Assembly: GCA_002399405.1 (NCBI GenBank)
Contig: DHDP01000013.1
Coordinates: forward strand, 150,784 to 214,783
Length of the DNA: 64,000 nucleotides
Reading direction: 5' to 3'
Origin: Treponema sp. UBA4873
GTDB taxonomy: Bacteria; Spirochaetota; Spirochaetia; Treponematales; Treponemataceae
Position numbers and translations under genes: made by a program. This document shows positions 26,295-62,874 of this stretch, one piece after another. The notes under the pieces were generated by a model. That model saw only the letters and a program-made list of their open reading frames with translations. It did not search any database and was not told the origin of the DNA. Position 1 is the first letter of the stretch, and every line of letters starts with the position of its first letter.

Positions 26295-26295
26295 A

Positions 26296-36271: not shown

Positions 36272-36293
36272 ATACGAAACCTCCATAAGAGTT

Positions 36294-46138: not shown

Positions 46139-46370
46139 AGTTTATCTCCCATTAAAAATAAGACTCAAAAAAAAGTCCCGACACCGCTTCCAATTGCAGT
46201 ATCAGGACCTCCGGTTATCCAGTCAGTTCCCCGGGAAACGCTTCCCGTACAGTTACGCAGAACACGCTGAGTAAATCCTCATGACTTAATCAGCGGTCCC
46301 TTGTACTCCTTATTTACCTACTTTTATAATAGGTTTTTAGTATATTATAATTGTTTCACCCATTTGTCAA
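46139..46370 (-). promoter_or_regulatory. promoter plus structured 5' leader with intrinsic terminator (leader copy A) upstream of cysK; unclassified riboswitch/attenuator candidate
   Basis: TTGACA (46370-46365), 17 nt spacer, TAATAT (46347-46342). ACCTA-N9-TAGGT at 46316-46334. The conserved core is GGAACTGACTGGATAACCGGAGGTCC (reverse complement of 46205-46230). A 13-bp stem (46175-46187 with 46196-46208) is followed by U8 (46167-46174), about 30 nt before the ATG. Confidence 0.7.
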
Positions 46371-46417
46371 GTATTTTAGTAGGCAATAAAGGGAATGTTT
46401 CACAAATTCAAACTTAT

Positions 46418-47569
46418 TTAATCGGCTTCATTCAGATACTCGAAAACGTAGTTAATGAGAAATTCAACTCCGTATTTCAGAACGCCTTCGTCGACTATCG
46501 TTTTGTTCGTATGGCCGACTGTATATTTCTCATTGACCGCAGCACCCACATGAATGAACGTTCCCGGTATAAATTTCTGATAAAGCGCAAAGTCCTCTCC
46601 GCCCATGAACGGTCTCCCCCATTTTACAGCTTTGCTGCCGTAAAGACGCTGTATGACTTTTACAGCCCTGTCGGTGCAGGTTTTGTCATTATTCACGGAA
46701 ACACCCGGCCCCCAGAAATCCGCGGCAACATCGGCACCTGCAGTCTCCGCTATATTTGCCGCGATTTCCCGTACCGATTTATTAAAAATGTACACATTTG
46801 ATTCCTGAAGCGTTCTGAAATTATACGATATATCGACAGATACAGGTTTGCCGTTTTCCTGATGAGTAGCTACGACAGTCGGGACGGTAACAACCTGCTC
46901 GTTCTGCGGATACCCGTATGCGGCAAGAGCGCTCACGTTGTTTATTATCTGCGACGCGGTAATTATGAGATTGGAAGTAAGGCTGTCGCGTTTTTTCAGA
47001 TGGATTTCGATGTTCGCGCCTATTGAACTCGCAATTCCGTATCCTACTTCGAATACGCCGAGATCGAGCGTCGTTGCATTATGAAGTCCTATGATAGTGT
47101 CAACATCATTCAGTCCGCCGGCTGCAACGATTTTTTTCGCTCCGGCGCCGATCTCTTCGCCTTCCTGAAAAAATATCTTTACGGTTCCGTGAATCTGCTC
47201 TTTCAGTTCATTGAGCAGCTTTGCAGTTCCAAGCATAAAAGTGATATGAGAGTCATGGCCGCAGGCATGCATAACGCCCTCGTTCTTCGACGAAAACGGA
47301 ACACCAGTTTCTTCTTCGACAGGCAGCGCATCAATGTCACCGCGCAGCGCTATTGTCTTTCCGGTTTTACTTCCTTTTATCGTTGCTATGATGCTCGTTG
47401 CGGGAATTTTTTCATAGCTTATGCCGAGCCTGTCGAGTTCGCCTGCAATATATTCGCAGGTTTTAAATTCCTGACTTCCAAGTTCGGGATATTCATGAAA
47501 ATGCTCGTAATTTTTTCTCAGATAGGTATCATTATCTTCGACAAGTTTTCTTATTTCTTCCTGTGACAT
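46418..47569 (-). CDS. M20D-family amidohydrolase (N-acyl-amino acid deacylase / YxeP-like)
   Basis: 383 aa with HEYPELGSQE, ALRGDIDALP, HACGHD, and C-terminal GGEDFALY..FIHVGA. Confidence 0.8.
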   Translation of the reverse strand: MSQEEIRKLVEDNDTYLRKNYEHFHEYPELGSQEFKTCEYIAGELDRLGISYEKIPATSIIATIKGSKTGKTIALRGDIDALPVEEETGVPFSSKNEGVMHACGHDSHITFMLGTAKLLNELKEQIHGTVKIFFQEGEEIGAGAKKIVAAGGLNDVDTIIGLHNATTLDLGVFEVGYGIASSIGANIEIHLKKRDSLTSNLIITASQIINNVSALAAYGYPQNEQVVTVPTVVATHQENGKPVSVDISYNFRTLQESNVYIFNKSVREIAANIAETAGADVAADFWGPGVSVNNDKTCTDRAVKVIQRLYGSKAVKWGRPFMGGEDFALYQKFIPGTFIHVGAAVNEKYTVGHTNKTIVDEGVLKYGVEFLINYVFEYLNEAD

Positions 47570-48718: not shown

Positions 48719-48721
48719 ATG

Positions 48722-49477: not shown

Positions 49478-49489
49478 AGCGGCCTCTGT

Positions 49490-50627: not shown

Positions 50628-50675
50628 GTATTTTAGTGGGATTTGGAGAATTATACGAAAATAATATTATTATTT

Positions 50676-51926: not shown

Positions 51927-51941
51927 CGTGCATACCCCGCC

Positions 51942-52643
51942 TTACAGTATACAGCGGTAACCCATGCCGTACACGGTTTCAATATATTTCGGTTCTTTCG
52001 GACTGTCCGAAAGTTTTTTCCGCAGGTTTTTAATATGCAGATCTATAGACCTGTCGGAACTGCCCGAATCGTCGTTTCCGATATGCGCAGTGATTTCATC
52101 GCGCGTAAAAATCTTTCCGGGTCTCGATACGAGCAGCACGAGAATCCGGTATTCGTTTCCGGTAAGCAGCACGGGCTCGCCGGAGCGCAGCACCGTCCGC
52201 TTTTCGCAGTCGATCACAAGGTCCGAAAATGAAACGGTTCCCGCCGTTTCCGGCTGCGCGCTCCGCCTGAGGATTGCGCCTATCCGCGCCGTCAGTTCGC
52301 GCGGACTGAACGGCTTCGTTACGTAGTCGTCCGCCCCCATATTCAGTCCGTGGATAATGCTCTGCTCGTCGGTTTTCGCGGTAATCATGATTACAGGAAC
52401 GTTTTTACGGCATCCGCTGTAAAAACCGTCCCTGATCCGGCTGCACAGCAATTCTCCCGGGATGTCAGGCAGCATGAGGTCAAGCAGCACGAATGAAATC
52501 TGCTCGCTGTCCAGAATGTTCTGGGCCCCGCTTCCGCTCTGAGCGCACAAAACCCGGTAACCGGCGTGTTCAAGATATGCGCGGAGCGTTTCAAGAATTT
52601 TCGGTTCGTCGTCGACGGCCAGAATTGTCTGTTTGTCGTTCAT
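51942..52643 (-). CDS. OmpR-family response regulator
   Basis: Receiver ILAVDDEPKI..VLLDLMLPD, winged-helix C-terminus (YIETVYGMGYR). Start at ATG 52643; the longer ORF to 52772 adds a non-homologous hydrophobic extension. Confidence 0.88.
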   Translation of the reverse strand: MNDKQTILAVDDEPKILETLRAYLEHAGYRVLCAQSGSGAQNILDSEQISFVLLDLMLPDIPGELLCSRIRDGFYSGCRKNVPVIMITAKTDEQSIIHGLNMGADDYVTKPFSPRELTARIGAILRRSAQPETAGTVSFSDLVIDCEKRTVLRSGEPVLLTGNEYRILVLLVSRPGKIFTRDEITAHIGNDDSGSSDRSIDLHIKNLRKKLSDSPKEPKYIETVYGMGYRCIL

Positions 52644-52695
52644 GTATCCCCCGCAAAAAATCAAACGAAGCCGATGATTGCACGCGAAGCCACAA

Positions 52696-54603
52696 TCAAT
52701 AGCCTCCCGAGCCGCCGCCTGCACAGCAGCTGCCGCTGCTGCCAGTATTATAATAATCGTCGGGATATACAAGTGTTTCGAACGACGATGCCTCCTTTTT
52801 TACCGCCGCCGTGTCTATTTTTGATATATCGTCGACAGTTTTGACGTATCCGAAGAAGATACTGTCTCCTGTCGAGAATCCGAAACTTTCGCGGGGCATC
52901 ACGAACAGACTGTTCTCGGACTGCTTTTCAAGCGGCACTATCGTCGTATACGCGGGAACTCTGAGTTCCGCGCTGCCGTCGTCGTCCGATTTGTTGCTGA
53001 TAATCCACTGCGCAGGGATATCCTTCTGAAGCACTACGACGGCGGGCGAAAATCCTTCGTCGGTGAGCGTTATGCGTACTGTCTGGATATTCTGTCCTTC
53101 GTACGTATCCGGCCGGGCAACGGCAATTTCGTCCACCGGAATCGTGTAGCCGGAAGGCTTCGGCCCCTGCTGGTCGGGTTCGGAGGCTGCGGCGTCGAGC
53201 GAGGCCTGGTCGGCTACGACTTTTATGGAACTCCTTATCATGCCCATCCAGCAGCTGTAGCGGAACGTGCCCGTTTTGTCGGGGGTGAACGTAATTGTAT
53301 TTTCGCCCGTTTTAAATTGATATTGGATGTTGTATTCCGGAATAATCATCCTGTTGTTGCATCCGTTGATGCTTCCGGGAGGCGCGTTGATTGTCCATTT
53401 TACGGGAACGCCCTGCCTGACGGTAATCGACGGATATCTGCCGGAAGCGAGAGTCGAGCTCACGGTCTGCACTCCGTTTTCCGTTTTTGCGGCGGAGCTG
53501 CCGGATGCTGGTTTTCCCGTACTCTGTGCGGCCGATACGGCGCTGGCGGGAAGAAATCTGTCGAGCGACAGGCCCGAAAGTACCCAGCCCTGAGAAAACA
53601 TGGTGATTCCCATAACAGTCACGATGCACGCCCCTACGGTCATGACGCGGTGCGTGAACTTTTTGCTCAGCACAGTGCTCAGCACGCCGAGTCCGAACAT
53701 GAGCGGAACTGTTCCAAGCGCAAACAGCAGCATAGCCGCAGCTCCGCGGAGTGCGCTGCCGGAGGCAAGCGCATACAGCTGCATCGCCTGCAGCGGTCCG
53801 CACGGCATAAGTCCGTTGAGCAGCCCTATAACAAAAGGATTCGTGTTCGTACCTTTTATGCGGTTCAGTTTCGAACCGAGACGGGCCGGCATATGCGGCA
53901 CGATATACCGTAAAAACGGAAACAGGCCGAGCATGTTTATTCCCATGATGACCATGAAAACTCCGGCAGCAAGCTGCACCGCCCCGCGCGCTTTGCCGGA
54001 GAACGAAAACACCGAGCCGATGCCGCCCGCAATGCCGCCTGTTATCGTATAGGAAACAACCCGGCCTCCGTTGTACAGCAGACTCGGAAAGAGAGAGCTT
54101 TTTACTCCGGCCGGACTGCCGTTCCGCGCCAGTGTCTGGGAAAGATTGATTCCCCCGCACATCGCAATACAGTGAACGGAGGTGATGAGCCCTATGACGA
54201 ACATCATGCCGAGTCCCATCCCCGCCTCCGCCGTCGGGAATGCGCTGAAAATCGACGCACCGTAACGGTCGAACAGCAGCGCCGCCGTGACGATGACTGC
54301 AAGCAGACCGAAAGCCCGTGCCCAGACAGGAGTCCGGGGCTGAGTCTGAATCACGTCGTCGTTTCCGGAAATACCGTAGCCGAGCTCTTCGACGATTTTC
54401 CTGATGTCGGACGACGAAACGATCGCGGTGTCGTAGACGACCTTAGCCGTACCTGCGCGGTAACTGACGATAACTGATTTGACACCGTCTGTCGACGCCA
54501 GTTTCTGCTCGATTCTGTTCTGGCAGGCGATGCACGACATACCGGTTATACGGAAAAACTCCGTTTTCACCGTGGATTCCTGAGATTGTTCACTGTGTTC
54601 CAT
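52696..54603 (-). CDS. multidomain membrane protein: N-terminal HMA metal-binding domain, DsbD_2/TauE-like polytopic domain, two cupredoxin-like domains and a Cys-Cys/Gly-rich tail
   Basis: GMSCIACQNRIE (HMA CxxC). Membrane core with SVHCIAMCGG and LMPCGPLQ. YPSITVRQGVPVKWTINAPPGSINGCNNRMIIP..FRYSCWMGM (cupredoxin-like). C-terminus SSGSCCAGGGSGGY. Confidence 0.65.
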   Translation of the reverse strand: MEHSEQSQESTVKTEFFRITGMSCIACQNRIEQKLASTDGVKSVIVSYRAGTAKVVYDTAIVSSSDIRKIVEELGYGISGNDDVIQTQPRTPVWARAFGLLAVIVTAALLFDRYGASIFSAFPTAEAGMGLGMMFVIGLITSVHCIAMCGGINLSQTLARNGSPAGVKSSLFPSLLYNGGRVVSYTITGGIAGGIGSVFSFSGKARGAVQLAAGVFMVIMGINMLGLFPFLRYIVPHMPARLGSKLNRIKGTNTNPFVIGLLNGLMPCGPLQAMQLYALASGSALRGAAAMLLFALGTVPLMFGLGVLSTVLSKKFTHRVMTVGACIVTVMGITMFSQGWVLSGLSLDRFLPASAVSAAQSTGKPASGSSAAKTENGVQTVSSTLASGRYPSITVRQGVPVKWTINAPPGSINGCNNRMIIPEYNIQYQFKTGENTITFTPDKTGTFRYSCWMGMIRSSIKVVADQASLDAAASEPDQQGPKPSGYTIPVDEIAVARPDTYEGQNIQTVRITLTDEGFSPAVVVLQKDIPAQWIISNKSDDDGSAELRVPAYTTIVPLEKQSENSLFVMPRESFGFSTGDSIFFGYVKTVDDISKIDTAAVKKEASSFETLVYPDDYYNTGSSGSCCAGGGSGGY

Positions 54604-54605
54604 AA

Positions 54606-55106
54606 TCAGCTTCTTTTCCAGTTTCCGAAGATTGATTTTGCCTGCTTCAGCAGCGCAAGAGGTACGGTGATTTTCGTGTCGGTCTCCTGCTTGTACTGTT
54701 CGGGAACAGGGACAGGATTACATCCGCCCGCACGCACGCCCACCTGGCTCATACGGAACCTGTTGCCGCAGTTCTGGCAGACAAGCACGCTTCCTTCCTG
54801 CCGGTAAAATCCGCGGCCGGAATTGTAGCAGACCTGGCACGTATTGAACGCTGTTCTCACAGTTCCGTCAGGAGCGCGCACCGCGAGCACTTCAATCCGC
54901 GTGCCGTCTATGTCGGCCGGGAAGAACACCGCGTTTTTGCCGATTTCGGAGACGTTGATGACAATGTCGCTGTTTTTTACCGCAGACCGCACCGTGTTAA
55001 GGGCGGACGTCCCTGACTGGGCCGCGGCGCGCGCAGCACCGGCAGCTGCAAACATGCCGGTGAAAAAAAGCACCTGAAAAATCTTTTTGGACGGATTAAA
55101 TTTCAT
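54606..55106 (-). CDS. DUF2318-like Cys-rich exported/membrane protein
   Basis: Signal/anchor segment, then CQVCYNSGRGFY..VCQNCGNRFR..GGCNPVP (four-Cys zinc-ribbon-like pattern). ATG at 55106 with AAGGAA upstream. Confidence 0.5.
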   Translation of the reverse strand: MKFNPSKKIFQVLFFTGMFAAAGAARAAAQSGTSALNTVRSAVKNSDIVINVSEIGKNAVFFPADIDGTRIEVLAVRAPDGTVRTAFNTCQVCYNSGRGFYRQEGSVLVCQNCGNRFRMSQVGVRAGGCNPVPVPEQYKQETDTKITVPLALLKQAKSIFGNWKRS

Positions 55107-55218
55107 TTCTGTGTTCCTTACTGTCTGAATTTCAGAACCTCTATGTTCCGATACATCCAAATATAAGGGACAACTGTGTATAAATTATGTAGCCGGCGGA
55201 AACAATTTTACAAAACAG

Positions 55219-56502
55219 TTACAGATCGTCGTACAGGTCTTCAACGAGCGTCAGGCAGCCCCTGTATCCGCCGTACGTGCGGTTGAACACGAGTTTGTCG
55301 GTTACGGGATACGACAGAACGCTGCACTGACACCCTTTCCGGCTGCCGATTTCCCGTTCGTTCGTGCTGCCGATAAGCAGCGTGATTTCGTCGTTTTTCG
55401 CAAGCAGTTTTTCAATGTCGTACTGGTCTGAGGCAAAATACACTTCCGGCGCACGCGCATATTCCAAATTTGTTATGCGTTTTCTGACTGCATCCTTATC
55501 TTTGTCGCGGAACAGCGGTTCGCTCACAATCGTCAAAAGCGGCGTAAAACTGTAGTCGTTCGCGAGAAAGCGCGTAAATCCGACCGCATAGTTCGAATCG
55601 CTTACGACTGCGAAACGCTTCCAGCTGAGCTTTCCGATCGCCTGCTCGAAATAATCGTAGACGTACTCCTCTTCCTTCCGTACGACAGATTCCACTTTTC
55701 CGGAATCAAGCGAAAGCGCTTCCCCTACCTGACGTACGAATGCGGTCGTATCTGTCGCACCGACAGGCATTCCCTCTATTCGAAGCGTCGGAATGCCGAA
55801 CTGCCCGGACAGTTTTTTCTCGGCACCGCGGAGCAGCCAGGGATGAATGATGATGTTCAGCGCCGCACTGCCTGCCCGCTTCACCGCGTCGATTCCCTGA
55901 TGTTCCGTAAAAAACGTGTTGACTTCGAGACCGAGCGCCCTGAGTATGCGCGTAAACTCTTCCAGCGTTCCGCTCCAGTACGGATCGTGATAGGGAACGA
56001 TGCCGAACAGATTAACGAGATTCTGCTGCCTCGGCCCTTTAACCATGATTTTGTCTATAAACGTATCTATGACGGACTCGTATCCGAGCATGTCGTTTCC
56101 GGCAAATCCCGGCGTGTCGATAGCGTACACAGGCTTCGGCGCATTTTTGAATTCCGAAACGACGCTCTGGATGTCGTCCCCGTTTATGCCCGCAGTGCAT
56201 CCGGTAAGCACAAAATACGCGTCCGCGTCGATTATCTCCATCGCTCCCTGAATAGTCGTGCGGAGCTTGTCCGTCCCGCCGAACACGACCTCTTTCTCAA
56301 GCATGTTCGTCGAAGGCAGTGAAACTCCCGAAAGAAACGACGCAGTCCTGCCGCACGACTGTCCCTGCTCCGACGCGCACGTCTGCATGCAGCATCCGGG
56401 ACCTGAATGGTACACCGGACAGAACCGGTCGACTGCACTGAGCACGGCGTTGATTCCGGCAAGCGCGCACCCTCCGCGGGGATTCTCAGTTACTTCCGAC
56501 AT
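55219..56502 (-). CDS. nitrogenase component 1-like protein, beta (NifK/NifN-like) subunit
   Basis: 427 aa. NPRGGCALAGINAV, VYHSGPGCCMQ and FVLTGCTAGINGDDIQSV align by eye with the three P-cluster Cys regions of NifK. Confidence 0.75.
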   Translation of the reverse strand: MSEVTENPRGGCALAGINAVLSAVDRFCPVYHSGPGCCMQTCASEQGQSCGRTASFLSGVSLPSTNMLEKEVVFGGTDKLRTTIQGAMEIIDADAYFVLTGCTAGINGDDIQSVVSEFKNAPKPVYAIDTPGFAGNDMLGYESVIDTFIDKIMVKGPRQQNLVNLFGIVPYHDPYWSGTLEEFTRILRALGLEVNTFFTEHQGIDAVKRAGSAALNIIIHPWLLRGAEKKLSGQFGIPTLRIEGMPVGATDTTAFVRQVGEALSLDSGKVESVVRKEEEYVYDYFEQAIGKLSWKRFAVVSDSNYAVGFTRFLANDYSFTPLLTIVSEPLFRDKDKDAVRKRITNLEYARAPEVYFASDQYDIEKLLAKNDEITLLIGSTNEREIGSRKGCQCSVLSYPVTDKLVFNRTYGGYRGCLTLVEDLYDDL

Positions 56503-57965
56503 GTATTTTCTCCTGCTGCTTTAATATATTTAAACGGATCTTCGCTGTACCACGACTCCCTGTACGGAAGGCGCGCGTGAGCGGCGAGCTTTACGTTGAA
56601 TCCGGGATTCTCTATCTGGTCAGCCATTTTGTTGCCGAGATACAAAAGACCGTCGTATCCCATCGTCGGACGCTTTCCGTCGAGAACGTGCGTCGTCGGT
56701 ATGCCGAAACGCGCGGACCATTCGGGAACGCCGATGAACACGTCGGGCTTCAGCCTGTTCACGATGTTCACCTGTTCGAACGGTTCCATGTTCGCCACGT
56801 CGACGACAAAATCCTTGTGTATGCCGTTGAGGTATTCAATGTCGGTCTGCGCGTCCTGATTGTACGTCGGCGTTTCGAGCCCGACAAGTTTCATGCCGAA
56901 GTCGTCTATAAGCGCGGCTGCCGCAAACGAGCGGCCCGTTCCTCCGCAGATGAACACGCGCTTTCCTTCGAGCCGTTTCCGTATGCGGGCGACAAGCGGA
57001 AGAATCCGTTCATGCTCGCGCGCAATTATTTCCTCCGCTTCCTTTTCCTTTCCCGCGACTTTAGCGATGCCGCGGAACCACGCGTCCGTGTTGCGTACTC
57101 CGATCGGCATGACCGTGTGCGAATACGGAATACCGTATTTCCGCTTCAGTTCAATCATGAATTCGTCCGCGAACACCTTGCAGATGGACGTCGATGCTGA
57201 TGCGGCCGGTATTTTAAGGATCGACTCGAGGCTGCCGTAGAACGGAATGTAGTTCACCGTAAGTCCGAGCTGCCCGAGCATCCGCTCCATTTCAAGCTGA
57301 TCCTTGTAGCTGACAGTCGTCGGCGCGAACAGATTGACGAGCCCCGGAATCTTCGGTACGTGCCTGTCTTTCAGAATGTACTTCGAAATGGAAATGAACG
57401 CGCTGTCGAAGCCCGACGCGCAGATTTTCGATTTGAATCCTTCGCAGTGAACGGGAACAAGAATCGCCTTACTGTTCGCCTGTTCGTTTTCCACTATGCC
57501 GTCGAGGTCGTCGCCTATCATGCCGGACGCGCACGACGCGTAGATGAATATCAGTTTCGGCGCATACCGTTCCTCCGCCTGGTGAATCGCCCGCACAAGT
57601 TTTTTGCCGCCGCCGAAAACAATATCGTCCGAATCAAGATTGGTGACAATGATGTGCGGATTGCGTATGTATTTTACACCGCGGTGCGCCTGACCGACGC
57701 GGTACATATCCACTGCCATAACGGTGCACCCGACGCATCCCTGAGGCGAATGGGCTATGAAGACAGCGTCGTCGAGCGACATGAGCGCCGCCATGCTGTT
57801 TATCTCCTGACACTGCAGCCCCTGCGCAAACGTCCTGTCGGCGGCTTTGAGACATTTCTTTTCGAAACTGTACGCCAGTTCTTCGCTGCTTCCGCCGAGA
57901 TCGTTGTACGTTTCCGGCCGTCGCTCCCGTATTCCCGAATATGTTTCCGGCATCCCCTGCTCCAT
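56490..57965 (-). CDS. nitrogenase component 1-like protein, alpha (NifD/NifE-like) subunit
   Basis: 491 aa. LQCQEINSMAAL, IAHSPQGCVGC, DIVFGGGKKL, IYASCASGMIGDD, VPVHCEGF, STSICKVF..KRKYGIPY and GIPTTHVLD resemble NifD regions, including the FeMo-co Cys/His positions. Confidence 0.75.
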   Translation of the reverse strand: MEQGMPETYSGIRERRPETYNDLGGSSEELAYSFEKKCLKAADRTFAQGLQCQEINSMAALMSLDDAVFIAHSPQGCVGCTVMAVDMYRVGQAHRGVKYIRNPHIIVTNLDSDDIVFGGGKKLVRAIHQAEERYAPKLIFIYASCASGMIGDDLDGIVENEQANSKAILVPVHCEGFKSKICASGFDSAFISISKYILKDRHVPKIPGLVNLFAPTTVSYKDQLEMERMLGQLGLTVNYIPFYGSLESILKIPAASASTSICKVFADEFMIELKRKYGIPYSHTVMPIGVRNTDAWFRGIAKVAGKEKEAEEIIAREHERILPLVARIRKRLEGKRVFICGGTGRSFAAAALIDDFGMKLVGLETPTYNQDAQTDIEYLNGIHKDFVVDVANMEPFEQVNIVNRLKPDVFIGVPEWSARFGIPTTHVLDGKRPTMGYDGLLYLGNKMADQIENPGFNVKLAAHARLPYRESWYSEDPFKYIKAAGENTCRK

Positions 57966-57974
57966 TAATAATTA

Positions 57975-59075
57975 TTATTTTATGATTTCTTCGAGTACTC
58001 TGATCACTTCGGCATTGTCTTCCCGTGTGCCTATCGATATCCGCACCCACGTGGGAAGACCGAACTCAGCAGCCGGACGTATCAGTATTCTCCGTTTCAG
58101 GAATTCGGCCTCGATCCACGTGCTGTCCTTTCCCGTATCGAACAGAATAAAATTCCCGTTCGATCTGATATAGTTCAGGCCGAGTTTCTCAAGTTCAGTA
58201 TAGTAGAGTTCCAGCCCTTCCCTGTTGTTCTCCAGAACTTTTTTTCTGAACTCCGCATCGTCGAGGCTCACCAGTGCCGCTTCCTGTGCGAGCGTGTTCA
58301 CGTTTATGGGTATGCGGACTTTGTTCATATTCCGTATGATTTCAGGATTCGTTATTCCGAATCCTATTCTGAAAGACGCAAGGCCGTAGACTTTCGAAAA
58401 AGTTCTGAGAAGAATTACATTCGTAAATTTCTTCAACAGGTACACAGTGTCGGGATATTCTTCGGATATGAAGTCTATATACGCTTCATCAAGAACAACA
58501 ATAATATCACTTCTGACTGCCTCAAGAAAATTAAGCAGCTCGTTCTGACCGAGCAGCGTTCCCGTCGGATTGTTCGGATTGCATATCCATATAACTTTCG
58601 TTTTTCCGGTTATTTTCTTTTGTATACTGTCGAGATCGATTCTAAAATTCGTCAGGGGCACGTATACCGGTACGGCGTCCATCTGCAGCGTGACGTTCGT
58701 ATACCAGCCGAACGACGGGACGGGAATGACTGACTCACCGCCCGGTTCGAGAAAAGTCTCTGCAACGAGCGAAATCAGTTCGAACGAACCGTTCCCGAAA
58801 ATAAAATCAGCTTCGTCTGTTTTATACACGGACGACAGTTTTTCCCGGAGCTTCGTGCAGTTCGTATCGGGATAATACGGCAACAGGCTGACATTCTTCA
58901 CCGCTTCAGCTGCACGGGGAGAACAGCCTAATCTGTTTTCGTTCCCTGCAAGTTTGATGACGTCGGAAAAACCGTATTCTCTTTTCACCGATTCAAGCGT
59001 CCGCGCCGGACGGTAATCGCTTATTTTTTCCAGAGCCGTCCGCGCCCTCACCGCCGTATTATTTTTTCTGAACAT
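57975..59075 (-). CDS. class I/II PLP-dependent aminotransferase (HisC/CobD family)
   Basis: IKLAGNENRLGCSP.., YYPD, VWICNPNNPTG, RTFSKVYGLASFRIG (PLP Lys). Start at ATG 59075; the ORF track start at 59123 would overlap the upstream gene by 65 nt. Confidence 0.8.
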   Translation of the reverse strand: MFRKNNTAVRARTALEKISDYRPARTLESVKREYGFSDVIKLAGNENRLGCSPRAAEAVKNVSLLPYYPDTNCTKLREKLSSVYKTDEADFIFGNGSFELISLVAETFLEPGGESVIPVPSFGWYTNVTLQMDAVPVYVPLTNFRIDLDSIQKKITGKTKVIWICNPNNPTGTLLGQNELLNFLEAVRSDIIVVLDEAYIDFISEEYPDTVYLLKKFTNVILLRTFSKVYGLASFRIGFGITNPEIIRNMNKVRIPINVNTLAQEAALVSLDDAEFRKKVLENNREGLELYYTELEKLGLNYIRSNGNFILFDTGKDSTWIEAEFLKRRILIRPAAEFGLPTWVRISIGTREDNAEVIRVLEEIIK

Positions 59076-60156
59076 TTTCCCTATACTCCCCGACAAGACT
59101 GTCTGCCGTTTTAAAACCTGCAACTATTTCTTCCGTCGTCCGGCCGAATCCGAAATGCGTATACTCGGGAAATTCCGCAAGTATTCTGTCTGCAATAACC
59201 GGCAAGTCCCTGTCTTCAAGCTGCAAATCCGAAAGTGTGAAAGCTTCGTCAAACCCTGCAAGCCGCTGTATAGTCTCCCTGATTTCTTTGTCCGATTTTT
59301 TCTGGAGCACCAGCTGCGTTATGATGCCGAACGCCACAAGTTCGCCGTGAAGCATCACCCGCGACGCAGGTATTCTCCGCGACGCGTGGTAAAACGGATG
59401 GGCGAAACCGGAATACGCACGGGCTCCGACGAAACTTCCGACAAGACCCGCGAGATAAAATACGGAATCGATCGTACAGACTGCGTTGTCTGTTATTTTC
59501 CCGGCTCTTTTTTCTTCAAGAGCGGCGGACGCTTTCTTTTCAAGCTGGTCAAAAGCCAGTTTTGCGCTGTAAACGGAAATTTGAAGAGGCAGCGGATCAT
59601 CGTTTCCTGTCATCCCGAGAGAATTTTCGTACCATTTCGCAAACGTATCGACAATTCCCGCTTTTATATACCGCTCGGGAGCATCCATCAGTATCTTTGT
59701 ATCCGCCACTATAACCCGGGGCGTGTGCGGATTTGCGTAGAACTGCTCGAAGTCGCCATCTTTCGTATAGATGATTGAAACGGCAGCCCACGGAGCACAC
59801 GTTGCCGCAATAGTCGGTACGGAAATTACAGGCAGTCCCGCCAGCGTGCCGGCAGCCTTTGCGGCATCATGGACTCTGCCTCCGCCGACAGCAGCGATGA
59901 ACGCCGCTCTGTTCTCTTTTGCTTCTTCCGCAATCTGCTTCGCTTTTTCGAGTGTCGGATATCCTGCAAACGGGAAAAAAGTGAAAGAGACGTAATTTTC
60001 CAAAAAACTTTTTTTGAGTACATCCTGTACGGCGCTGAACGCTGTCGTTCCCGCCACTACTAATCCTGTCGTTCCGTACTCCCTGACGTATTTACCCGCA
60101 TTGTTCAAAGCGCCTGGTTCACTTATGTATTTTTCCGGAGTCTTAATCTCAAACAT
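59059..60156 (-). CDS. iron-containing alcohol dehydrogenase superfamily protein (glycerol dehydrogenase-like)
   Basis: 365 aa. AVGGGRVHDAAKA, PTIAATCAPW, His-rich metal site (FAHPFYHA..HGELVAFG). Confidence 0.75.
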   Translation of the reverse strand: MFEIKTPEKYISEPGALNNAGKYVREYGTTGLVVAGTTAFSAVQDVLKKSFLENYVSFTFFPFAGYPTLEKAKQIAEEAKENRAAFIAAVGGGRVHDAAKAAGTLAGLPVISVPTIAATCAPWAAVSIIYTKDGDFEQFYANPHTPRVIVADTKILMDAPERYIKAGIVDTFAKWYENSLGMTGNDDPLPLQISVYSAKLAFDQLEKKASAALEEKRAGKITDNAVCTIDSVFYLAGLVGSFVGARAYSGFAHPFYHASRRIPASRVMLHGELVAFGIITQLVLQKKSDKEIRETIQRLAGFDEAFTLSDLQLEDRDLPVIADRILAEFPEYTHFGFGRTTEEIVAGFKTADSLVGEYRENVQKK

Positions 60157-60350
60157 ATATTTTCATCCGCCTCCTGATCGATCTCACCGCCGCATATGCC
60201 GCACAAATAAAAAAGGTTCCGGCACTGGTATATTTCTATCTCAGTGCCGGAACCTCCGGTTGTCCAGTCAGTTCCTTTCTAAAAATTATAAACTATTACC
60301 TACTATTCCAATATGTTTTTGATAATAATGCGGGTGCCGGTATTTGTCAA
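60157..60350 (-). promoter_or_regulatory. promoter plus short 5' leader with intrinsic terminator (leader copy C, minimal version)
   Basis: TTGACA (60350-60345), 17 nt spacer, TATTAT (60327-60322). Degenerate palindrome at 60298-60316. The core is GGAACTGACTGGACAACCGGAGGTTCC (reverse complement of 60249-60275). A 13-bp stem (60215-60227 with 60242-60254) is followed by U6 (60209-60214). Confidence 0.7.
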
Positions 60351-60366
60351 GTATGCGGCGGCATGT

Positions 60367-61482
60367 TCAGCCCCACACTTCCTCCGCTATTTCCTTTACG
60401 AGCGCAAGTTTCGCCCACTGTTCGGCTTCCGTAAGTTTATTGCCGATCTCGCACGAGGCAAAACCGCACTGAGGACTTAGACACAGCCGTTCGAGCGGAA
60501 TATACCGGGCGGCCTCGTGTATCCGTGCAATGACAGCCTGTTTATCTTCGAGATGCGGAGACTTTGTTGTAACGAGTCCGAGCACCACTTTTTTGTCTCC
60601 GCTCACTTTTGATAGCGGCGCAAAGCCGCCCGAGCGGGCGTCGTCGTATTCAAGGTAGTACGCATCGACGTTTTCGCGTGCAAACAGCACAGCCGCGACA
60701 GCATCGTACGAACCGGAACTTGCATATGTGGAATGAAAGTTACCCCTGCACACGTGCGTGTTGATGACGAGGTCTCCGGGCTTTCCGTCGACGGCAAGGT
60801 TGTTGATTGCCAGAAGCTGCTCCTGTATTTCCTTAAGACCGGCCGTCGTGGTGCCGAAAAGCGACGTCGCACGCGGATCCACAAGCATACCCCACGAACA
60901 GTCGTCGAACTGGATATTGCGGCAGCCGGCGTCGTATAAGGCGCGGATTACCTTTTTATACCCGGCGGCGATATCATGCACAAGTTCCTCCGTAGTCCCG
61001 TAATACTTCCGGGTGTTCTCCAGCGCGAACGGCATAATCATCTGTTCAAGAAACTGTGCCGGAGCCGGAATAGTCTGCTTTGCGGCAGTTTCCGCGTCTT
61101 CAAACGCTTGTACGAATTTGTAATGGTCCACGAACGGATGATGGTCTACCGAAACTTTTCCGGTAAGATACGTATCGTCGATCATCGCGGCTTCGCCGTG
61201 GAACGGAAGGCCTGTTTGAGTTTTCGAATGCCCGACACCGTCGAACGCCCACATAAAATCGAGGTGCCACGTTGCGCGGCGGAATTCTCCGTCGGTGATG
61301 ACATGAAATCCCGCCTTTTTCTGCGCCGAGACGAGACTGCTGATGGCTTCGTCCTCCGCTCCTGTCAGTTCTTCTTTCGTGATTCTGCCCGCTTCAAAAT
61401 CGGAACGAGCTTTTTTCAATGAAGCCGGACGGAGAAAACTGCCGACAAAGTCGAATCTGAACGGAGTATGCAATGTGCTCAT
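60367..61482 (-). CDS. cobalamin-independent methionine synthase family protein (MetE C-terminal-domain type, YxjG/YxjH-like)
   Basis: 371 aa. PFRFDFVGSFLRP, ITDGEFRR..WHLDF, C-terminal SPQCGFAS. Confidence 0.8.
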   Translation of the reverse strand: MSTLHTPFRFDFVGSFLRPASLKKARSDFEAGRITKEELTGAEDEAISSLVSAQKKAGFHVITDGEFRRATWHLDFMWAFDGVGHSKTQTGLPFHGEAAMIDDTYLTGKVSVDHHPFVDHYKFVQAFEDAETAAKQTIPAPAQFLEQMIMPFALENTRKYYGTTEELVHDIAAGYKKVIRALYDAGCRNIQFDDCSWGMLVDPRATSLFGTTTAGLKEIQEQLLAINNLAVDGKPGDLVINTHVCRGNFHSTYASSGSYDAVAAVLFARENVDAYYLEYDDARSGGFAPLSKVSGDKKVVLGLVTTKSPHLEDKQAVIARIHEAARYIPLERLCLSPQCGFASCEIGNKLTEAEQWAKLALVKEIAEEVWG

Positions 61483-61614
61483 AATTACCTGCCTTTACGA
61501 TGTGTATTGGTAAAATTATACCGGCCGCACAAATCAACAGCAAATACTTTTTTTTATGTATAAGCCATAAATTTTAGTTATGACACTGACATATCTTCTA
61601 AAAAATGATACATT

Positions 61615-61633
61615 TCCTATTTACTCGATAGGT
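61615..61633. promoter_or_regulatory. TCCTA-N9-TAGGTAA palindrome just downstream of a candidate promoter for the trans-sulfuration gene
   Basis: CTGACA, 17 nt spacer, TACATT, followed immediately by TCCTATTTACTCGATAGGTAA. Same motif family as at leaders A, B, C and 39.2 kb. Confidence 0.5.
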
Positions 61634-61665
61634 AATTTATATTATTATCAGCTTCAGGAGCTGTT

Positions 61666-62874
61666 ATGATACACGATTTTTCAAAAAACGGATTTGCAAC
61701 GCGTGCAGTCCATGCAGGAGAAGCGCCGGATCCGGCGACAGGAGCTTCCGCCCCGAATCTCGTTATGTCGACGACATACGTCACTACGGCCGACGCGTCG
61801 TTCTCTGCCGAGGATTTCGGAGAAAACACTCCCTTTATTTACACACGGTGGGGCAATCCGACAATAGCGCAGCTTGAGCGGAAACTTGCTTCACTGGAAA
61901 ACGCGGAGGCCGCCGTTGCGTTTGCAAGCGGAATGGCCGCAAGCACCGGCCTGCTGCTCCAGTTTTTGAAACCGGGTGATCATCTCGTCGTCTCGGACGT
62001 GAGTTACGCAGGCGTGGCGGAATTCACAAAGGATTATCTGCCGTCGCACGGAATAGAAGTGACGAAAGTCGATTTGTCAGCCCCCGCGAACCTGAAAGCT
62101 GCAATACGGCCGAACACGCGTTTCGTCTATGCGGAAACGCCGGCGAATCCCATACTCAAACTCACTGATATTTCCGCAGCGGCCGCGATAACGCACGAAG
62201 CCGGCGCTAAACTGATAGTCGACTCCACGTTTGCAACGCCGGTCGCCACCCGTCCGCTCGAACTCGGTGCCGATTTTGTCGTTCATTCGCTTACAAAATA
62301 CATGAGCGGGCACGGAGACGCGATCGGCGGCGCGGTGCTCGGAAAAGCGGCAGACCTTGCGGAACTGAAAAAAGGCGCGAGCATTCATCTGGGCGGTATT
62401 ATCAGTCCGTTCAACGCATGGCTCATCCTGCGCGGAATTTCAACGCTGCCCGTCAGAATGCGCGCGCATGAGGAAGGCGCTTTTGCCGTGGCCCGTGCGC
62501 TCGAATCGAATCCGAACGTAAAGCGTGTCATTTACCCCGGACTCGATTCGCATCCGCAGGCGGAACTTGCGCACCGTCAGATGAAAAATTTTTCCGGCAT
62601 GATAAGTTTTCAGGTAAAAGGCGACGGCGGCGCCGCCGCCAGGCGTTTTTCGGACAGACTCGAAATAATCCACTATGCGGTTTCGCTCGGCCATCAGCGC
62701 AGCCTTATCTTTTATCTTGCGACAAACGACATGCTGCGGACCTCTTTTCAGATGACGGCAAAACAGGAAGCCGTGTACCGCAGCTTTGCGGGAGACGGAA
62801 TATTCCGGCTGTCTGTCGGACTAGAAGACCCTGCCGACATTATTGCAGATCTTGACAGAGCGCTGGAAGCCTGA
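61666..62874 (+). CDS. Cys/Met-metabolism PLP-dependent enzyme (methionine gamma-lyase / O-acetylhomoserine sulfhydrylase / cystathionine gamma-synthase family)
   Basis: 402 aa. TRAVHAG, YTRWGNPT, SGMAA, VVHSLTKYMSGHGD (PLP Lys). Confidence 0.85.
   Translation: MIHDFSKNGFATRAVHAGEAPDPATGASAPNLVMSTTYVTTADASFSAEDFGENTPFIYTRWGNPTIAQLERKLASLENAEAAVAFASGMAASTGLLLQFLKPGDHLVVSDVSYAGVAEFTKDYLPSHGIEVTKVDLSAPANLKAAIRPNTRFVYAETPANPILKLTDISAAAAITHEAGAKLIVDSTFATPVATRPLELGADFVVHSLTKYMSGHGDAIGGAVLGKAADLAELKKGASIHLGGIISPFNAWLILRGISTLPVRMRAHEEGAFAVARALESNPNVKRVIYPGLDSHPQAELAHRQMKNFSGMISFQVKGDGGAAARRFSDRLEIIHYAVSLGHQRSLIFYLATNDMLRTSFQMTAKQEAVYRSFAGDGIFRLSVGLEDPADIIADLDRALEA

What the first reader, a model, noticed from the sequence alone, without database searches (positions are those of the whole stretch)
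55219..60156. Orphan nitrogenase-like D/K pair in a sulfur-wired operon with Fe-ADH-like and aminotransferase genes (candidate Mar-like C-S bond reductase)
Two minus-strand ORFs overlapping by 13 nt (56490-57965, 491 aa; 55219-56502, 427 aa) read as nitrogenase component-1 alpha/beta-like proteins. By eye they keep the segments that carry the P-cluster cysteines. In the D-like protein these are LQCQEI, HSPQGCVGC and YASCASGMIGDD. In the K-like protein they are GGCALAGI, HSGPGCCMQ and LTGCTAGINGDD. The D-like protein also has a Cys and a His where NifD ligates FeMo-co (STSICKVF...KRKYGIPY; GIPTTHVLD). They therefore look like cofactor-bearing enzymes and not BchN/ChlN-type proteins. No nifH, nifB, nifEN, nifV or nitrogen-regulatory genes are in the window. 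Instead the pair follows an Fe-ADH/GldA-like gene and a HisC-family aminotransferase. It sits behind a promoter/leader cassette (copy C) shared with cysK and a polar amino acid ABC operon, between a metE-like gene and metal-handling membrane proteins, and close to a trans-sulfuration PLP enzyme. The only characterised nitrogenase-like enzyme in sulfur metabolism that I know of is methylthio-alkane reductase (MarBHDK, Rhodospirillum rubrum). It cleaves volatile organosulfur compounds to methanethiol for methionine synthesis. An ADH that makes or uses (methylthio)alcohols, an aminotransferase acting on methionine/keto-methylthiobutyrate, and a methanethiol-consuming sulfhydrylase would fit such a route. 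To my knowledge, a spirochaetal version with no linked H subunit and with this gene context has not been described.
Basis: partly seen in the sequence, partly recalled or inferred. Interest (0 to 1): 0.88.

Follow-up and report, generated by a model that had tools for sequence, protein, structure and literature searches.

The report
Mar-sister nitrogenase-like sulfur reductase
A gut-type Treponema carries the two catalytic subunits of a nitrogenase-like enzyme that is related to, but clearly distinct from, the known methylthio-alkane reductase and is wired into sulfur-scavenging genes; the family is widespread in anaerobes, but its reaction is still unknown.

Summary
Two overlapping minus-strand ORFs encode nitrogenase component-1 alpha/beta-like proteins with all six P-cluster cysteines plus a Cys/His cofactor pair. 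No NifH/B/X-like gene lies in the 64 kb. The host is a Treponema. [quoted passage not shown]

The pair is not a Mar orthologue. It belongs to a separate, tightly conserved clade ("D1K1"; 200/200 bootstrap, never inside the Mar clade). That clade lacks Mar's Loop I Arg428/His429 and the essential Trp195. It has instead an invariant histidine that aligns with nitrogenase His442.

In Firmicutes, D1K1 usually sits beside a true Mar-like pair (D2K2), one NifH-like gene, a NifB-like gene and NifX-like genes. The GldA-type dehydrogenase and HisC-type aminotransferase recur with these islands, always next to an SsuA-family ABC transporter. The operon shares a promoter-operator-attenuator leader with cysK.

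Best reading: the catalytic half of an uncharacterised, Fe-protein-dependent C-S reductase for anaerobic organosulfur assimilation, acquired horizontally, with partners encoded elsewhere. Substrate unknown. Novelty: new variant of a known kind.

The parts
60322..60350 (-). Sigma-70-type promoter TTGACA-17-TATTAT of the ADH-AT-D-K operon
   Evidence: 11 of 12 consensus matches, the best site in the 52000-61700 scan
60298..60319 (-). Operator-like palindrome AAAACaTA-N9-TAGGT just after the -10 box
   Evidence: Same element upstream of cysK, the amino-acid ABC operon and a fourth transporter gene; 6 matches against 1.0 expected
60204..60275 (-). Leader: conserved 26-nt core (60250-60275) overlapping the 5' arm of a 16-bp terminator hairpin (60212-60257) followed by a U-tract (60204-60211)
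   Evidence: Core occurs 3 times in the window with 0 expected. Fold -41 kcal/mol, z = -4.45, and the hairpin is kept in all three copies with stem changes on both sides. No Rfam family matches
59059..60156 (-). GldA-type (glycerol dehydrogenase family) Fe-ADH, 365 aa
   Evidence: PF00465/PF13685; NF006941 at 209 bits, below the 336 cutoff; best PDB hits are glycerol dehydrogenases at 3e-41
57975..59075 (-). HisC-type class I/II aminotransferase, 366 aa (ATG 59075; overlaps the ADH stop by 17 nt)
   Evidence: PF00155; TIGR01141 at 316.6 bits against a 276.55 cutoff; PDB 3ffh at 8e-69; gene call in L001
56490..57965 (-). D1: NFL alpha-like subunit, 491 aa; Cys52/77/145 (P-cluster), Cys262 and His426 (cofactor candidates)
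55219..56502 (-). K1: NFL beta-like subunit, 427 aa; Cys12/37/102 (P-cluster); overlaps D1 by 13 nt
46150..46420 (-). Full-length copy of the same promoter/operator/leader upstream of cysK (45182-46138)
   Evidence: CysK is PF00291
50408..50678 (-). Full-length copy of the same leader upstream of the polar amino-acid ABC operon (47960-50386)

Best explanation
The two ORFs encode the catalytic (component-1) heterotetramer of a Group IV nitrogen-fixation-like reductase. It is a paralogue of methylthio-alkane reductase, not an orthologue. Inferred mechanism: a NifH-like Fe protein encoded elsewhere delivers electrons, ATP-dependently, to a P-type cluster held by three Cys from D1 and three from K1. 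The electrons pass on to a NifB-derived L-cluster-type cofactor in D1, anchored by Cys262 and, unlike in Mar, by a histidine on the nitrogenase-type 'Loop II' (His426). The enzyme reductively cleaves a C-S bond of a small organosulfur compound so that its sulfur can be assimilated under anoxic, sulfur-limited conditions. The co-transcribed HisC-type aminotransferase and GldA-type dehydrogenase most likely convert an amino form of the substrate, through the oxo form, into the hydroxy form that the reductase attacks. This is the same three-step logic as Tpa-SarD-IslAB in Bilophila. Because the ADH/AT module always travels with an SsuA-family ABC importer in other genomes, I think a charged compound is more likely than a freely diffusing volatile thioether; candidates are a C2-C3 amino/hydroxy-alkanesulfonate or an S-substituted amino or hydroxy acid. 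The operon was probably acquired by the Treponema from Firmicutes. It is co-regulated with cysK and an amino-acid importer through a shared operator plus terminator-attenuator leader. Shown: homology, ligand conservation, clade separation, gene linkage and shared leader. Inferred: cofactor identity, His426 ligation, C-S chemistry, substrate class, sulfur-responsive regulation and trans-acting H/B.
For: Closest solved relatives are MarD and MarK (1.7e-72 and 3.2e-70), against about 1e-27 for NifD. The predicted fold is closest to MarD (TM 0.75-0.88), against about 0.67 for NifD. All six P-cluster Cys, Cys262 and His426 are invariant in the family. D1 is a separate clade from Mar (D1 200/200, Mar plus D2 200/200, nested 0/200). 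Signature differences in 13 of 13 D1 sequences: no Loop I Arg-His; Trp195 replaced, mostly by Cys; His375 replaced by Thr or Val; predicted channel residues changed and mostly smaller, N56/A59/A84/M87. In Firmicutes D1K1 lies in islands with NifB-like, NifX-like and NifH-like genes, CysK-type PALP enzymes, Cys/Met PLP enzymes and ABC importers. ADH plus AT accompany D1K1 in 6 of 19 D-anchored loci from 4 lineages. In the reverse test, 3 of 3 AT relatives sit beside the Fe-ADH, an NMT1-type ABC importer (SsuA-family by NCBIfam) and NFL genes, and 9 further top AT hits share contig lengths with D1 hits. The six binding proteins tested from ADH/AT loci score 131-160 bits on SsuA_fam (cutoff 163.5), not TauA. 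The leader is shared with cysK and an amino-acid ABC operon. Both characterised sulfur-cycle NFLs, Mar and Isr, are sulfur-limitation or substrate-induced C-S reductases (PMC13474568, PMC11423573, 10.64898/2026.08.20.746119).
Against: No Fe protein, NifB or NifX gene is in the window, and the rest of the genome could not be searched. Without them the enzyme cannot work. The model has low confidence at 176-183, which is the active-site helix. In Konateibacter the ADH-AT-SsuA-like module sits beside the Mar-like D2K2 with no D1K1 in 17 kb, so the module is tied to NFL sulfur islands in general, not specifically to D1K1. The aminotransferase passes the HisC equivalog cutoff and could be a real HisC. 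In the window itself the SsuA-like ABC system is 10 kb away and scores weakly (67 bits). R. palustris NflDK3, another orphan pair, showed no activity on any substrate tested (10.64898/2026.08.20.746119). No sulfite reductase was seen in any island.
Confidence: 0.5

Rival explanations
1. It is a functional methylthio-alkane reductase isozyme. Like R. palustris Mar1 and Mar2, it would cleave volatile thioethers (DMS, EMS, 2-methylthioethanol, methionol) to methanethiol, which the neighbouring Cys/Met PLP enzyme uses to make methionine. The ADH would make the methylthio-alcohol.
For: Mar is the closest characterised relative. The P-cluster Cys and Cys270 equivalent are kept. A MetE-like gene and a Cys_Met_Meta_PP gene flank the operon. 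In R. rubrum an ADH makes 2-methylthioethanol upstream of Mar (PMC13474568). In Konateibacter the ADH/AT module sits next to the Mar-like D2K2.
Against: Identity to MarD and MarK is only 33%, against 52-65% among the R. palustris Mar homologues (10.64898/2026.08.20.746119). It is outside the Mar clade in 200 of 200 bootstraps. It lacks His429 and Arg428, and Trp195 is replaced; substitutions at His429 and Trp195 inactivate Mar (PMC13474568). A better Mar orthologue coexists in the same islands. Volatile thioethers need no SsuA-type importer.
Confidence: 0.15
2. D1K1 is a NifEN-like scaffold or maturase that matures or stores the L-cluster-type cofactor for the Mar-like D2K2 enzyme, and is not itself a catalyst.
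For: The gene order B-X-D1-K1-H-D2-K2-X in Clostridium sp. Marseille-P2415 mimics nifB-X-E-N-H-D-K. D2K2 lies within 10 kb of D1K1 in 13 of 19 loci. The best NCBIfam hit of D1 is NifE (164.5 bits), and NCBI names several relatives NifE. A scaffold role for paired NFL sets was suggested in 2012 (PMC3464626).
Against: K1 keeps all three P-cluster Cys, whereas NifN keeps only one; this rests on knowledge of NifEN, with the K1 residues. D1K1 occurs without D2K2, H or B within 10 kb in 5 loci, including the window, and there it is co-transcribed with metabolic enzymes. In R. rubrum, Mar needs neither NifEN nor the nearby NflDK (PMC13474568).
Confidence: 0.15
3. It is an inactive leftover of a horizontally acquired island. 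The Treponema kept D1K1 but lacks a cognate Fe protein and cofactor synthase, so the pair has no activity.
For: No H, B or X gene is present in 64 kb. The D1 gene is split in Anaerocolumna xylanovorans, which shows that decay happens. R. palustris NflDK3 has no detected activity (10.64898/2026.08.20.746119).
Against: Both ORFs are intact with every ligand residue. They are translationally coupled and sit behind a strong promoter and a regulated leader. The ADH-AT-D-K arrangement is conserved in other Treponema assemblies (AT 82-93% identical, D and K in the same 90% clusters). Spirochaetes with dispersed group IV nifH/B/D/K loci are known (PMC13067680).
Confidence: 0.07
4. It is a true NifDK or NifEN that serves nitrogen fixation together with a nif cluster elsewhere in the genome.
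For: A Cys275 equivalent and a His aligning to His442 are present. Some termite-gut treponemes fix nitrogen (PMC13474568).
Against: All Nif/Vnf/Anf equivalog models score 3-10 times below their cutoffs. NifD Gln191 and His195 are replaced by Cys182 and Phe186. NifD is a much weaker match than MarD. The context and leader are sulfur-related.
Confidence: 0.02

Closest known systems
Methylthio-alkane reductase MarBHDK (Group IV-C NFL; R. rubrum; PDB 9FMG, 9D9U)
   Same: Best sequence and fold match. Same six P-cluster Cys and the Cys270-equivalent cofactor ligand. Sulfur-assimilation context. In relatives it sits with NifB-like and NifH-like genes.
   Different: Only 33% identity. Separate clade. 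No Loop I Arg428/His429. Trp195 replaced by Cys, His375 by Thr. Predicted channel residues changed. A candidate His ligand lies on Loop II instead. No linked H or B gene in this genome region. The Mar-like orthologue in the same islands is a different pair (D2K2).
Orphan NflDK pairs (R. palustris NflDK3, RPA2363-64; R. rubrum NflDK)
   Same: D/K pair without an adjacent H or B gene, in sulfur-gene neighbourhoods. NflDK3 is induced by sulfate limitation. Function unknown.
   Different: NflDK3 is 52-56% identical to Mar1 and keeps His429, so it is not the D1 type. Whether R. rubrum NflDK is D1-type could not be tested because its sequence was not on hand.
Isethionate reductase IsrBHDK (Group IV-F NFL; R. 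capsulatus)
   Same: An NFL enzyme for anaerobic sulfur assimilation that works with an SsuABC-type importer. Reported in Spirochaetota and Bacillota.
   Different: IsrD keeps only one of the three alpha-side Cys and lacks Cys275 and His442. IsrB is a BciD-like radical SAM enzyme, not NifB-like. The window's D keeps all of these residues, and its relatives sit with NifB-like and NifX-like genes.
Mo/V/Fe nitrogenase NifDK, VnfDK, AnfDK
   Same: Same fold, same six P-cluster Cys, Cys275, and a His that aligns with His442 on Loop II.
   Different: No Gln191 or His195. The Loop II is two residues shorter. Far below all family cutoffs. No nif genes nearby.
Bilophila taurine pathway Tpa-SarD-IslAB
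   Same: Same three-step logic: an aminotransferase, then an Fe-ADH-family reductase, then a C-S cleaving enzyme acting on the hydroxy compound.
   Different: Different enzyme families at every step: a class III aminotransferase, a SarD-type ADH and a glycyl-radical lyase. That pathway is dissimilatory. The resemblance is an analogy only.
Group IV nifD/K of the termite spirochaete 'P. corrugata' (PMC13067680)
   Same: A spirochaete with group IV nifD/K in a sulfur (cysteine synthase) operon and nifH/nifB at distant loci.
   Different: Its gene neighbours differ (leucine-rich repeat proteins). No ADH/AT pair is reported. Its sequence clade was not compared here.

Membership tests
Methylthio-alkane reductase MarDK (Group IV-C) | Six P-cluster cysteines (MarD C66/C91/C158; MarK C32/C56/C121) | tested here: met
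   D C52/C77/C145 and K C12/C37/C102
Methylthio-alkane reductase MarDK (Group IV-C) | Cofactor ligand Cys270 | tested here: met
   Cys262, invariant in the family
Methylthio-alkane reductase MarDK (Group IV-C) | Mar-specific Loop I carrying Arg428-His429 (His429 essential) | tested here: not met
   A 4-residue deletion removes it in 13 of 13 D1 sequences, while the D2 pairs keep 'SRHPG'
Methylthio-alkane reductase MarDK (Group IV-C) | Trp195 above the cofactor (W195A is inactive), and His375 | tested here: not met
   Cys182 and Thr367 occupy these positions; D2 keeps Trp and His
Methylthio-alkane reductase MarDK (Group IV-C) | Branches with R. rubrum MarD | tested here: not met
   NJ, 200 bootstraps: Mar plus D2 clade 200, D1 clade 200, D1 inside Mar 0. 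The tree is distance-based only; no ML tree with published reference sets was made.
Methylthio-alkane reductase MarDK (Group IV-C) | Linked marH and marB | tested here: not met
   None in the 64 kb window. The rest of the genome could not be tested.
Methylthio-alkane reductase MarDK (Group IV-C) | Cleaves DMS, EMS and MT-EtOH to methanethiol plus hydrocarbon | not testable with these tools
   Needs enzyme or growth assays
Nitrogenase NifDK/VnfDK/AnfDK (Groups I-III) | Passes the curated equivalog models | tested here: not met
   nifD 144 against 653.55; N2-ase-Ialpha 159 against 486; nifK 72.7 against 427.3
Nitrogenase NifDK/VnfDK/AnfDK (Groups I-III) | FeMo-co ligands Cys275 and His442 | tested here: inconclusive
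   Cys is met. His426 aligns to His442 in phmmer against three NifD chains (two A. vinelandii variants and one methanogen NifD) and in one MAFFT run, but is offset by two columns in another. No geometry is available.
Nitrogenase NifDK/VnfDK/AnfDK (Groups I-III) | Gln191 and His195, needed for N2 reduction | tested here: not met
   Cys182 and Phe186 occupy these positions
NifEN cofactor scaffold | Passes the NifE and NifN equivalog models | tested here: not met
   NifE 164.5 against 505.1; NifN 38.5 against 326.8
NifEN cofactor scaffold | The beta-like subunit has lost most P-cluster Cys (a [4Fe-4S] site) | tested here: not met
   K1 keeps all three Cys. The NifN feature is taken from established knowledge.
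Isethionate reductase IsrDK (Group IV-F) | IsrD keeps only the Cys88 equivalent and lacks Cys275 and His442 (PMC11423573) | tested here: not met
   The window's D keeps all three Cys plus Cys262. The Isr-like signature is seen in a different clade, P0186-P0215.
DPOR/COR (BchNB, BchYZ) and CfbD | Passes the curated equivalog models | tested here: not met
   BchB 105.6 against 490; BchN 54.8 against 420; CfbD 57.5 against 268
Group IV NFL, uncharacterised clade ('D1K1') | PF00148 alpha/beta pair; six P-cluster Cys; Cys275 equivalent; no Loop I; 'GIPxTH' Loop II motif | tested here: met
   Which published label applies (IV-D or IV-E) could not be assigned without the reference sequences.

The most novel reading that the evidence does not exclude
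D1K1 is a third kind of sulfur-cycle nitrogenase-like enzyme. It would be a Mar-sister reductase whose L-cluster-type cofactor is anchored in the nitrogenase manner (Cys plus a Loop II His). It would catalyse a so far undescribed reductive C-S cleavage of a charged amino/hydroxy organosulfur compound, delivered by an SsuA-like importer and prepared by a dedicated aminotransferase and dehydrogenase. Its ligand arrangement would also suggest that Loop II histidine ligation predates the Mar/nitrogenase split.
Probability: 0.3. Interest if true: 0.8.

Novelty: new variant of a known kind. Interest (0 to 1): 0.6.

Why it matters
A 2026 review calls assigning functions to the remaining Group IV NFL clades one of the field's greatest challenges (PMC13474568). 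This clade is abundant in gut, rumen and sediment anaerobes, with hundreds of 90% clusters. Its members are 64-78% identical (one at 56%) across Bacillota, Spirochaetota and Elusimicrobiota. It now comes with concrete handles: a conserved accessory module of an SsuA-like importer, a HisC-like aminotransferase and a GldA-like dehydrogenase, which narrows the substrate search, and a compact four-gene operon in a Treponema. The clade also bears on an open evolutionary question. The Mar structure paper could not infer whether the ancestral cofactor histidine lay on Loop I or Loop II (PMC12552129). Here, a relative closer to Mar than to nitrogenase has the Loop II type. If the enzyme releases sulfur from sulfonates or S-conjugates anaerobically, it adds a route to the anoxic sulfur cycle of animal guts.

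Tried and rejected
(1) Known riboswitch or leader family upstream: Rfam found nothing relevant at gathering or at E ≤ 1 thresholds.

(2) Identifying the exact genome: the genome-contig scan returned relatives but not the source genome. Only the genus was inferred, from 90% clusters.

(3) Searching the rest of the genome for H, B or D2K2: not possible, because only about 39 kb of an alternative assembly could be fetched.

(4) The metagenome-contig scan gave only 5 more loci.

(5) Naming clade representatives through cluster look-ups: almost all are unnamed metagenomic proteins, so R. rubrum NflDK and the published IV-D and IV-E labels could not be anchored.

(6) Measuring the Cys262-His426 geometry: model coordinates are not exposed.

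(7) The first bootstrap run timed out and was redone with a fast distance method.

(8) The downstream FtrD-like and HMA-DsbD-cupredoxin genes were tested as conserved partners. No homologue appears near D1K1 in any other locus, so they are treated as unrelated neighbours.

(9) A Faecalicatena sulfoquinovose paper that mentions both key terms proved irrelevant.

(10) Isr, NifDK, NifEN, DPOR and CfbD membership were all rejected on defining residues or cutoffs.

Full report
**Observation**

The two minus-strand ORFs are exactly where stated: 56490-57965 (491 aa) and 55219-56502 (427 aa), overlapping by 13 nt. Both match only the generic nitrogenase component-1 domain PF00148, at E 2e-79 and 7e-70. 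Every curated family model (NifD, NifE, NifK, NifN, Vnf, Anf, BchB/N/Y/Z, CfbD) scores three- to ten-fold below its cutoff.

The genes immediately upstream are a GldA-type Fe-alcohol dehydrogenase (59059-60156) and a HisC-type aminotransferase. The aminotransferase probably starts at ATG 59075, as called in an independent assembly. That gives a tight ADH-AT-D-K operon with 17-nt and 13-nt overlaps and one 9-nt gap.

tblastn with NifH-, NifB- and NifX-like proteins from a related cluster finds nothing in the 64 kb, and no third PF00148 gene exists. Pfam annotation of almost all ORFs of at least 180 aa that did not lie inside a longer ORF shows no nif or nitrogen-regulatory genes. Small PII-type genes and nifV were not searched specifically.

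The organism is a Treponema. Its seryl-tRNA synthetase falls in a 90% identity cluster with several Treponema MAG proteins, and near-identical D and K copies are annotated from Treponema MAGs.

**What the proteins are closest to**

Against all PDB sequences, the best hits of both proteins are 9FMG and 9D9U, at 1.7e-72 for D and 3.2e-70 for K. True NifD and NifE score about 1e-27 or worse. [quoted passage not shown] The other 'Nitrogenase' entries, 9P1X and 9SPZ, are archaeal true nitrogenases.

An AlphaFold2 model of D (pLDDT 76, pTM 0.77; low confidence at 1-50 and 176-183) matches MarD best in Foldseek (TM 0.75-0.88, rmsd 3.1-3.3 Å). NifD chains follow at TM about 0.67.

**Ligand residues**

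The numbering below follows the published R. rubrum residues.
- The window's D keeps Cys52, Cys77 and Cys145, equivalent to MarD Cys66, Cys91 and Cys158.
- The window's K keeps Cys12, Cys37 and Cys102, equivalent to MarK Cys32, Cys56 and Cys121.
- D Cys262 aligns with MarD Cys270 and NifD Cys275.
- All of these, and His426, are invariant in 38 family members.

Three Mar-defining features are absent.
- The 4-residue 'Loop I' that carries Arg428-His429 is missing. His429 is the cofactor ligand, and Mar is inactive when it is mutated.
- Trp195 is Cys182. The W195A variant of Mar is inactive.
- His375 is Thr367.

The four channel residues that differ between R. palustris Mar1 and Mar2 (M70, C73, Y98, I101) are N56, A59, A84 and M87 here.

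Instead, the invariant motif GIP(T/S/N)TH places His426 where phmmer aligns A. vinelandii NifD His442 and the equivalent His of a methanogen NifD. One MAFFT alignment agrees. A larger one offsets the two histidines by two columns, because the loop is two residues shorter than in NifD. In the model, His426 follows a short strand (424-425) and precedes the 436-452 helix, which is the topology described for Loop II (PMC13474568).

**It is a paralogue of Mar, not an orthologue**

Close homologues (72-78% identity) number in the hundreds of 90% clusters. Those that carry names come from Clostridia, Lachnospiraceae and Negativicutes. A Treponema MAG and an Elusimicrobiota MAG carry copies at 70%.

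In these genomes there are two D/K types.
- The window type (D1K1).
- A second pair (D2K2), only 28-30% identical to D1.

D2 scores higher against MarD than the window's D does (302-304 against 248-251 bits). K2 is 42% identical to MarK, against 33% for the window's K. D2 also keeps Trp195, His375 and 'SRHPG', equivalent to Mar's 'IRHNG'.

An exhaustive search of 1.84 billion representatives found 1534 relatives (124 at E ≤ 1e-30). Only a few 50% clusters lie close to D1.

A neighbour-joining tree was built from 57 sequences, and 200 bootstrap replicates were run on the same alignment.
- D1 is monophyletic in 200 of 200.
- The Mar clade, with R. rubrum MarD and all D2 sequences, is monophyletic in 200 of 200.
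- D1 never falls inside the Mar clade.

Its nearest neighbours (P0147, P0148; 186 of 200) lack both histidines. A further clade shows the published IsrD signature (only the Cys88 equivalent kept, no Cys275), which the window protein does not have.

The review states that Cys270, Arg428 and His429 are conserved in nearly all Group IV NFLs and that the nitrogenase His442 is absent from them. The 2012 census likewise found His442 in none of its nitrogenase-like alpha sequences. D1 is an exception on both counts. I found no description of this in the papers read.

**Gene context elsewhere**

These counts cover 19 D-anchored loci with usable flanks.

| Feature within 10 kb of D1K1 | Loci (of 19) |
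|---|---|
| D2K2 pair | 13 |
| NifB-like radical SAM gene | 10 |
| NifH-like gene | 8 |
| None of H, B, X or D2K2 (window, L010, L014, L018, L021) | 5 |
| ADH plus AT | 6, from four lineages |

CysK-type PALP enzymes, Cys/Met PLP enzymes, LysR or Rrf2 regulators and ABC importers are frequent neighbours. The 'orphan' arrangement is therefore common.

The six loci with ADH plus AT are the window, L006/L016/the P0044 locus, L010 and L014. In each of the five loci other than the window, the pair is contiguous with an NMT1-type ABC importer.

The reverse test agrees. Three of three look-ups of aminotransferase relatives show the Fe-ADH directly upstream, the same importer, and NFL genes in the same cluster. 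The three are a Logan metagenome contig, Anaerocolumna xylanovorans and Konateibacter massiliensis. Nine more top AT hits lie on contigs whose lengths match contigs carrying D1 hits, including two Treponema contigs with AT at 93% and 82% identity.

One caveat applies. In Konateibacter the module sits beside B-X-H-D2-K2 with no D1K1 in the 17 kb shown. The module is therefore tied to NFL sulfur islands in general and not uniquely to D1K1.

The six binding proteins tested from ADH/AT loci score 131-160 bits on the SsuA-family model (cutoff 163.5) and only 30-43 bits on TauA. The two Treponema binding proteins are weaker SsuA/SaoX-like matches. One locus continues with a sulfatase, its radical-SAM maturase and a TauE-type exporter.

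**Regulation**

The operon has the best sigma-70-type promoter of the region (TTGACA-17-TATTAT, 60350-60322). A palindrome (AAAACaTA-N9-TAGGT, 60298-60319) follows it. Next comes a leader whose conserved 26-nt core (60250-60275) overlaps the 5' arm of a 16-bp terminator hairpin (60212-60257) with a U-tract. The leader's minimum free energy is -41 kcal/mol (z = -4.45).

The core occurs exactly three times in the window, with 0 expected by chance: upstream of cysK, of a polar amino-acid ABC operon, and of this operon. The cysK and ABC copies carry about 90-100 extra nucleotides. The hairpin is kept in all three copies, with stem changes on both sides. The palindrome marks those three sites plus a fourth transporter gene. 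No Rfam family matches.

Co-regulation with cysteine synthesis is therefore well supported. The signal, and whether RNA or protein senses it, are unknown.

**Most likely function**

Mar and Isr, the two characterised sulfur-cycle NFLs, are both Fe-protein-dependent reductive C-S cleaving enzymes, used for anaerobic sulfur assimilation and induced by sulfur limitation or by substrate. D1K1 shares Mar's cluster-binding framework. In relatives it sits with NifB-like and NifX-like genes, which suggests a NifB-derived cofactor. It lies in the same kind of island.

I therefore propose that it is the catalytic component of a distinct C-S reductase. Its changed and mostly smaller predicted channel residues, altered active-site helix and different histidine anchor fit a different substrate.

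The ADH/AT pair, with an importer for charged sulfonate-type compounds, suggests an amino to oxo to hydroxy conversion that feeds the reductase. Bilophila's Tpa-SarD-IslAB pathway, as summarised in the review, uses the same logic. Both enzymes belong to families that typically act on C2-C3 skeletons: GldA on secondary alcohols and ketones or glycolaldehyde, HisC on a 2-amino group next to an anionic arm or on amino acids. That last point rests on established knowledge of the families.

Candidate substrates are hydroxy- or amino-alkanesulfonates, or S-substituted amino or hydroxy acids. Functionalised thioethers such as 2-methylthioethanol remain possible. The wider window fits a scavenging island, with four tandem GST-like genes, M20 peptidases, several amino-acid ABC systems, an SsuA-like ABC system, cysK, a MetE-like gene and a Cys/Met PLP enzyme. 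I give the general claim 0.5.

**Rivals**

| Reading | Confidence | Main argument |
|---|---|---|
| True Mar isozyme | 0.15 | Disfavoured by the failed Mar signatures, the clade separation and the coexisting D2K2 |
| NifEN-like scaffold for D2K2 | 0.15 | Suggested by the B-X-D1K1-H-D2K2 order and the weak NifE preference; opposed by the intact six-Cys site, stand-alone D1K1 operons with metabolic genes, and the finding that R. rubrum Mar needs no scaffold |
| Inactive relic | 0.07 | Opposed by perfect conservation, translational coupling, a regulated promoter and conservation across Treponema assemblies |
| Real nitrogenase or NifEN | 0.02 | Excluded by family cutoffs and the loss of Gln191 and His195 |

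**Novelty and verdict**

The family is not new as sequence. Nitrogenase-like pairs next to cysteine synthase genes have been noted since 2012. Orphan NflDK pairs are known. A spirochaete with dispersed group IV genes has been described.

Relative to the papers I read, three things are new.
- This widespread clade is separate from Mar and carries a nitrogenase-type Loop II histidine in place of Mar's Loop I ligand.
- A conserved module of an SsuA-like importer, a HisC-like aminotransferase and a GldA-like dehydrogenase accompanies these islands.
- A compact, apparently horizontally acquired ADH-AT-D-K operon in Treponema sits under a cysK-type leader.

I rate it a new variant of a known kind, with interest 0.6. 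It is a good experimental entry point to an uncharacterised NFL clade and to the question of the ancestral cofactor ligand. It is not the first spirochaetal or orphan example, and it is not a Mar.

Noticed in passing
window 46150-46420, 50408-50678, 60204-60350 (all minus strand); palindrome also at 39208-39229: A shared promoter, palindromic operator and terminator-attenuator leader with an identical 26-nt core (GGAACTGACTGGAYAACCGGAGGTYC), with 0 matches expected by chance. The cysK and ABC copies carry about 90-100 extra nucleotides upstream of the core. No Rfam family matches, so this is a candidate for an undescribed sulfur-responsive cis-regulatory RNA or protein-dependent attenuator in Treponema.
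   Followed up: partly
window 32143-36286 (minus strand): Four tandem paralogous GST_C_2 proteins (329-347 aa, the size of Xi-class or YqjG-like GSTs). They are flanked by M20 peptidases (30966-32120, 46418-47569) and amino-acid ABC systems, which suggests scavenging of glutathione or cysteine S-conjugates next to the sulfur regulon.
   Followed up: no
window 52696-55160 (minus strand): An FtrD-like membrane protein, then a 635-aa fusion of HMA, a DsbD_2 transmembrane domain and a cupredoxin-like domain, followed by a two-component system (50676-52772). They lie directly downstream of K but have no homologue near D1K1 in any other locus, so they are probably an unrelated metal-handling unit.
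   Followed up: partly
L025 9150-10595 (Anaerocolumna xylanovorans): The D1 gene is split into two ORFs (190 and 257 aa), while K1, ADH, AT and D2K2 are intact. This is a possible pseudogene or sequencing error.
   Followed up: partly
L026 1464-11769 (Konateibacter massiliensis): The ADH-AT-SsuA-like ABC module sits directly after B-X-H-D2-K2-X, with no D1K1 in the 17 kb shown. The module can therefore accompany the Mar-like pair alone.
   Followed up: partly
L004 18248-20172 compared with about 15750-17673 (Clostridium sp. Marseille-P2415): A K2 fragment, a NifX-like gene and a binding-protein gene are repeated at 100% protein identity. This is either a recent tandem duplication or an assembly artefact.
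   Followed up: no
representatives P0147 and P0148: The nearest sister clusters of D1 (about 40% identity; Oscillospiraceae MAGs) keep the six Cys and Cys270 but have neither the Loop I nor the Loop II histidine. They may use a third cofactor-anchoring solution or be cofactor-less variants.
   Followed up: no
L012 453-13884 (Treponema sp. MAG RGIG8904): A related Treponema carries K2-D2 (in that order, as in R. palustris marKD2), then CysK, LysR and a MatE gene, then ABC-D1-K1-SsuA/SaoX-like SBP, all on the + strand, without ADH/AT and without H or B in 21 kb.
   Followed up: partly
window 5053-5786 and 23364-23437: A cluster of six tRNA genes upstream of tig-clpP-clpX, plus one isolated tRNA. 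This looks ordinary.
   Followed up: no
window 23665-27486: Two mandelate racemase/enolase-superfamily genes flank an amino-acid permease, next to a GntR/FCD regulator (27537-28349). This small catabolic unit of unknown substrate sits in a lower-GC stretch (about 41-42%).
   Followed up: no
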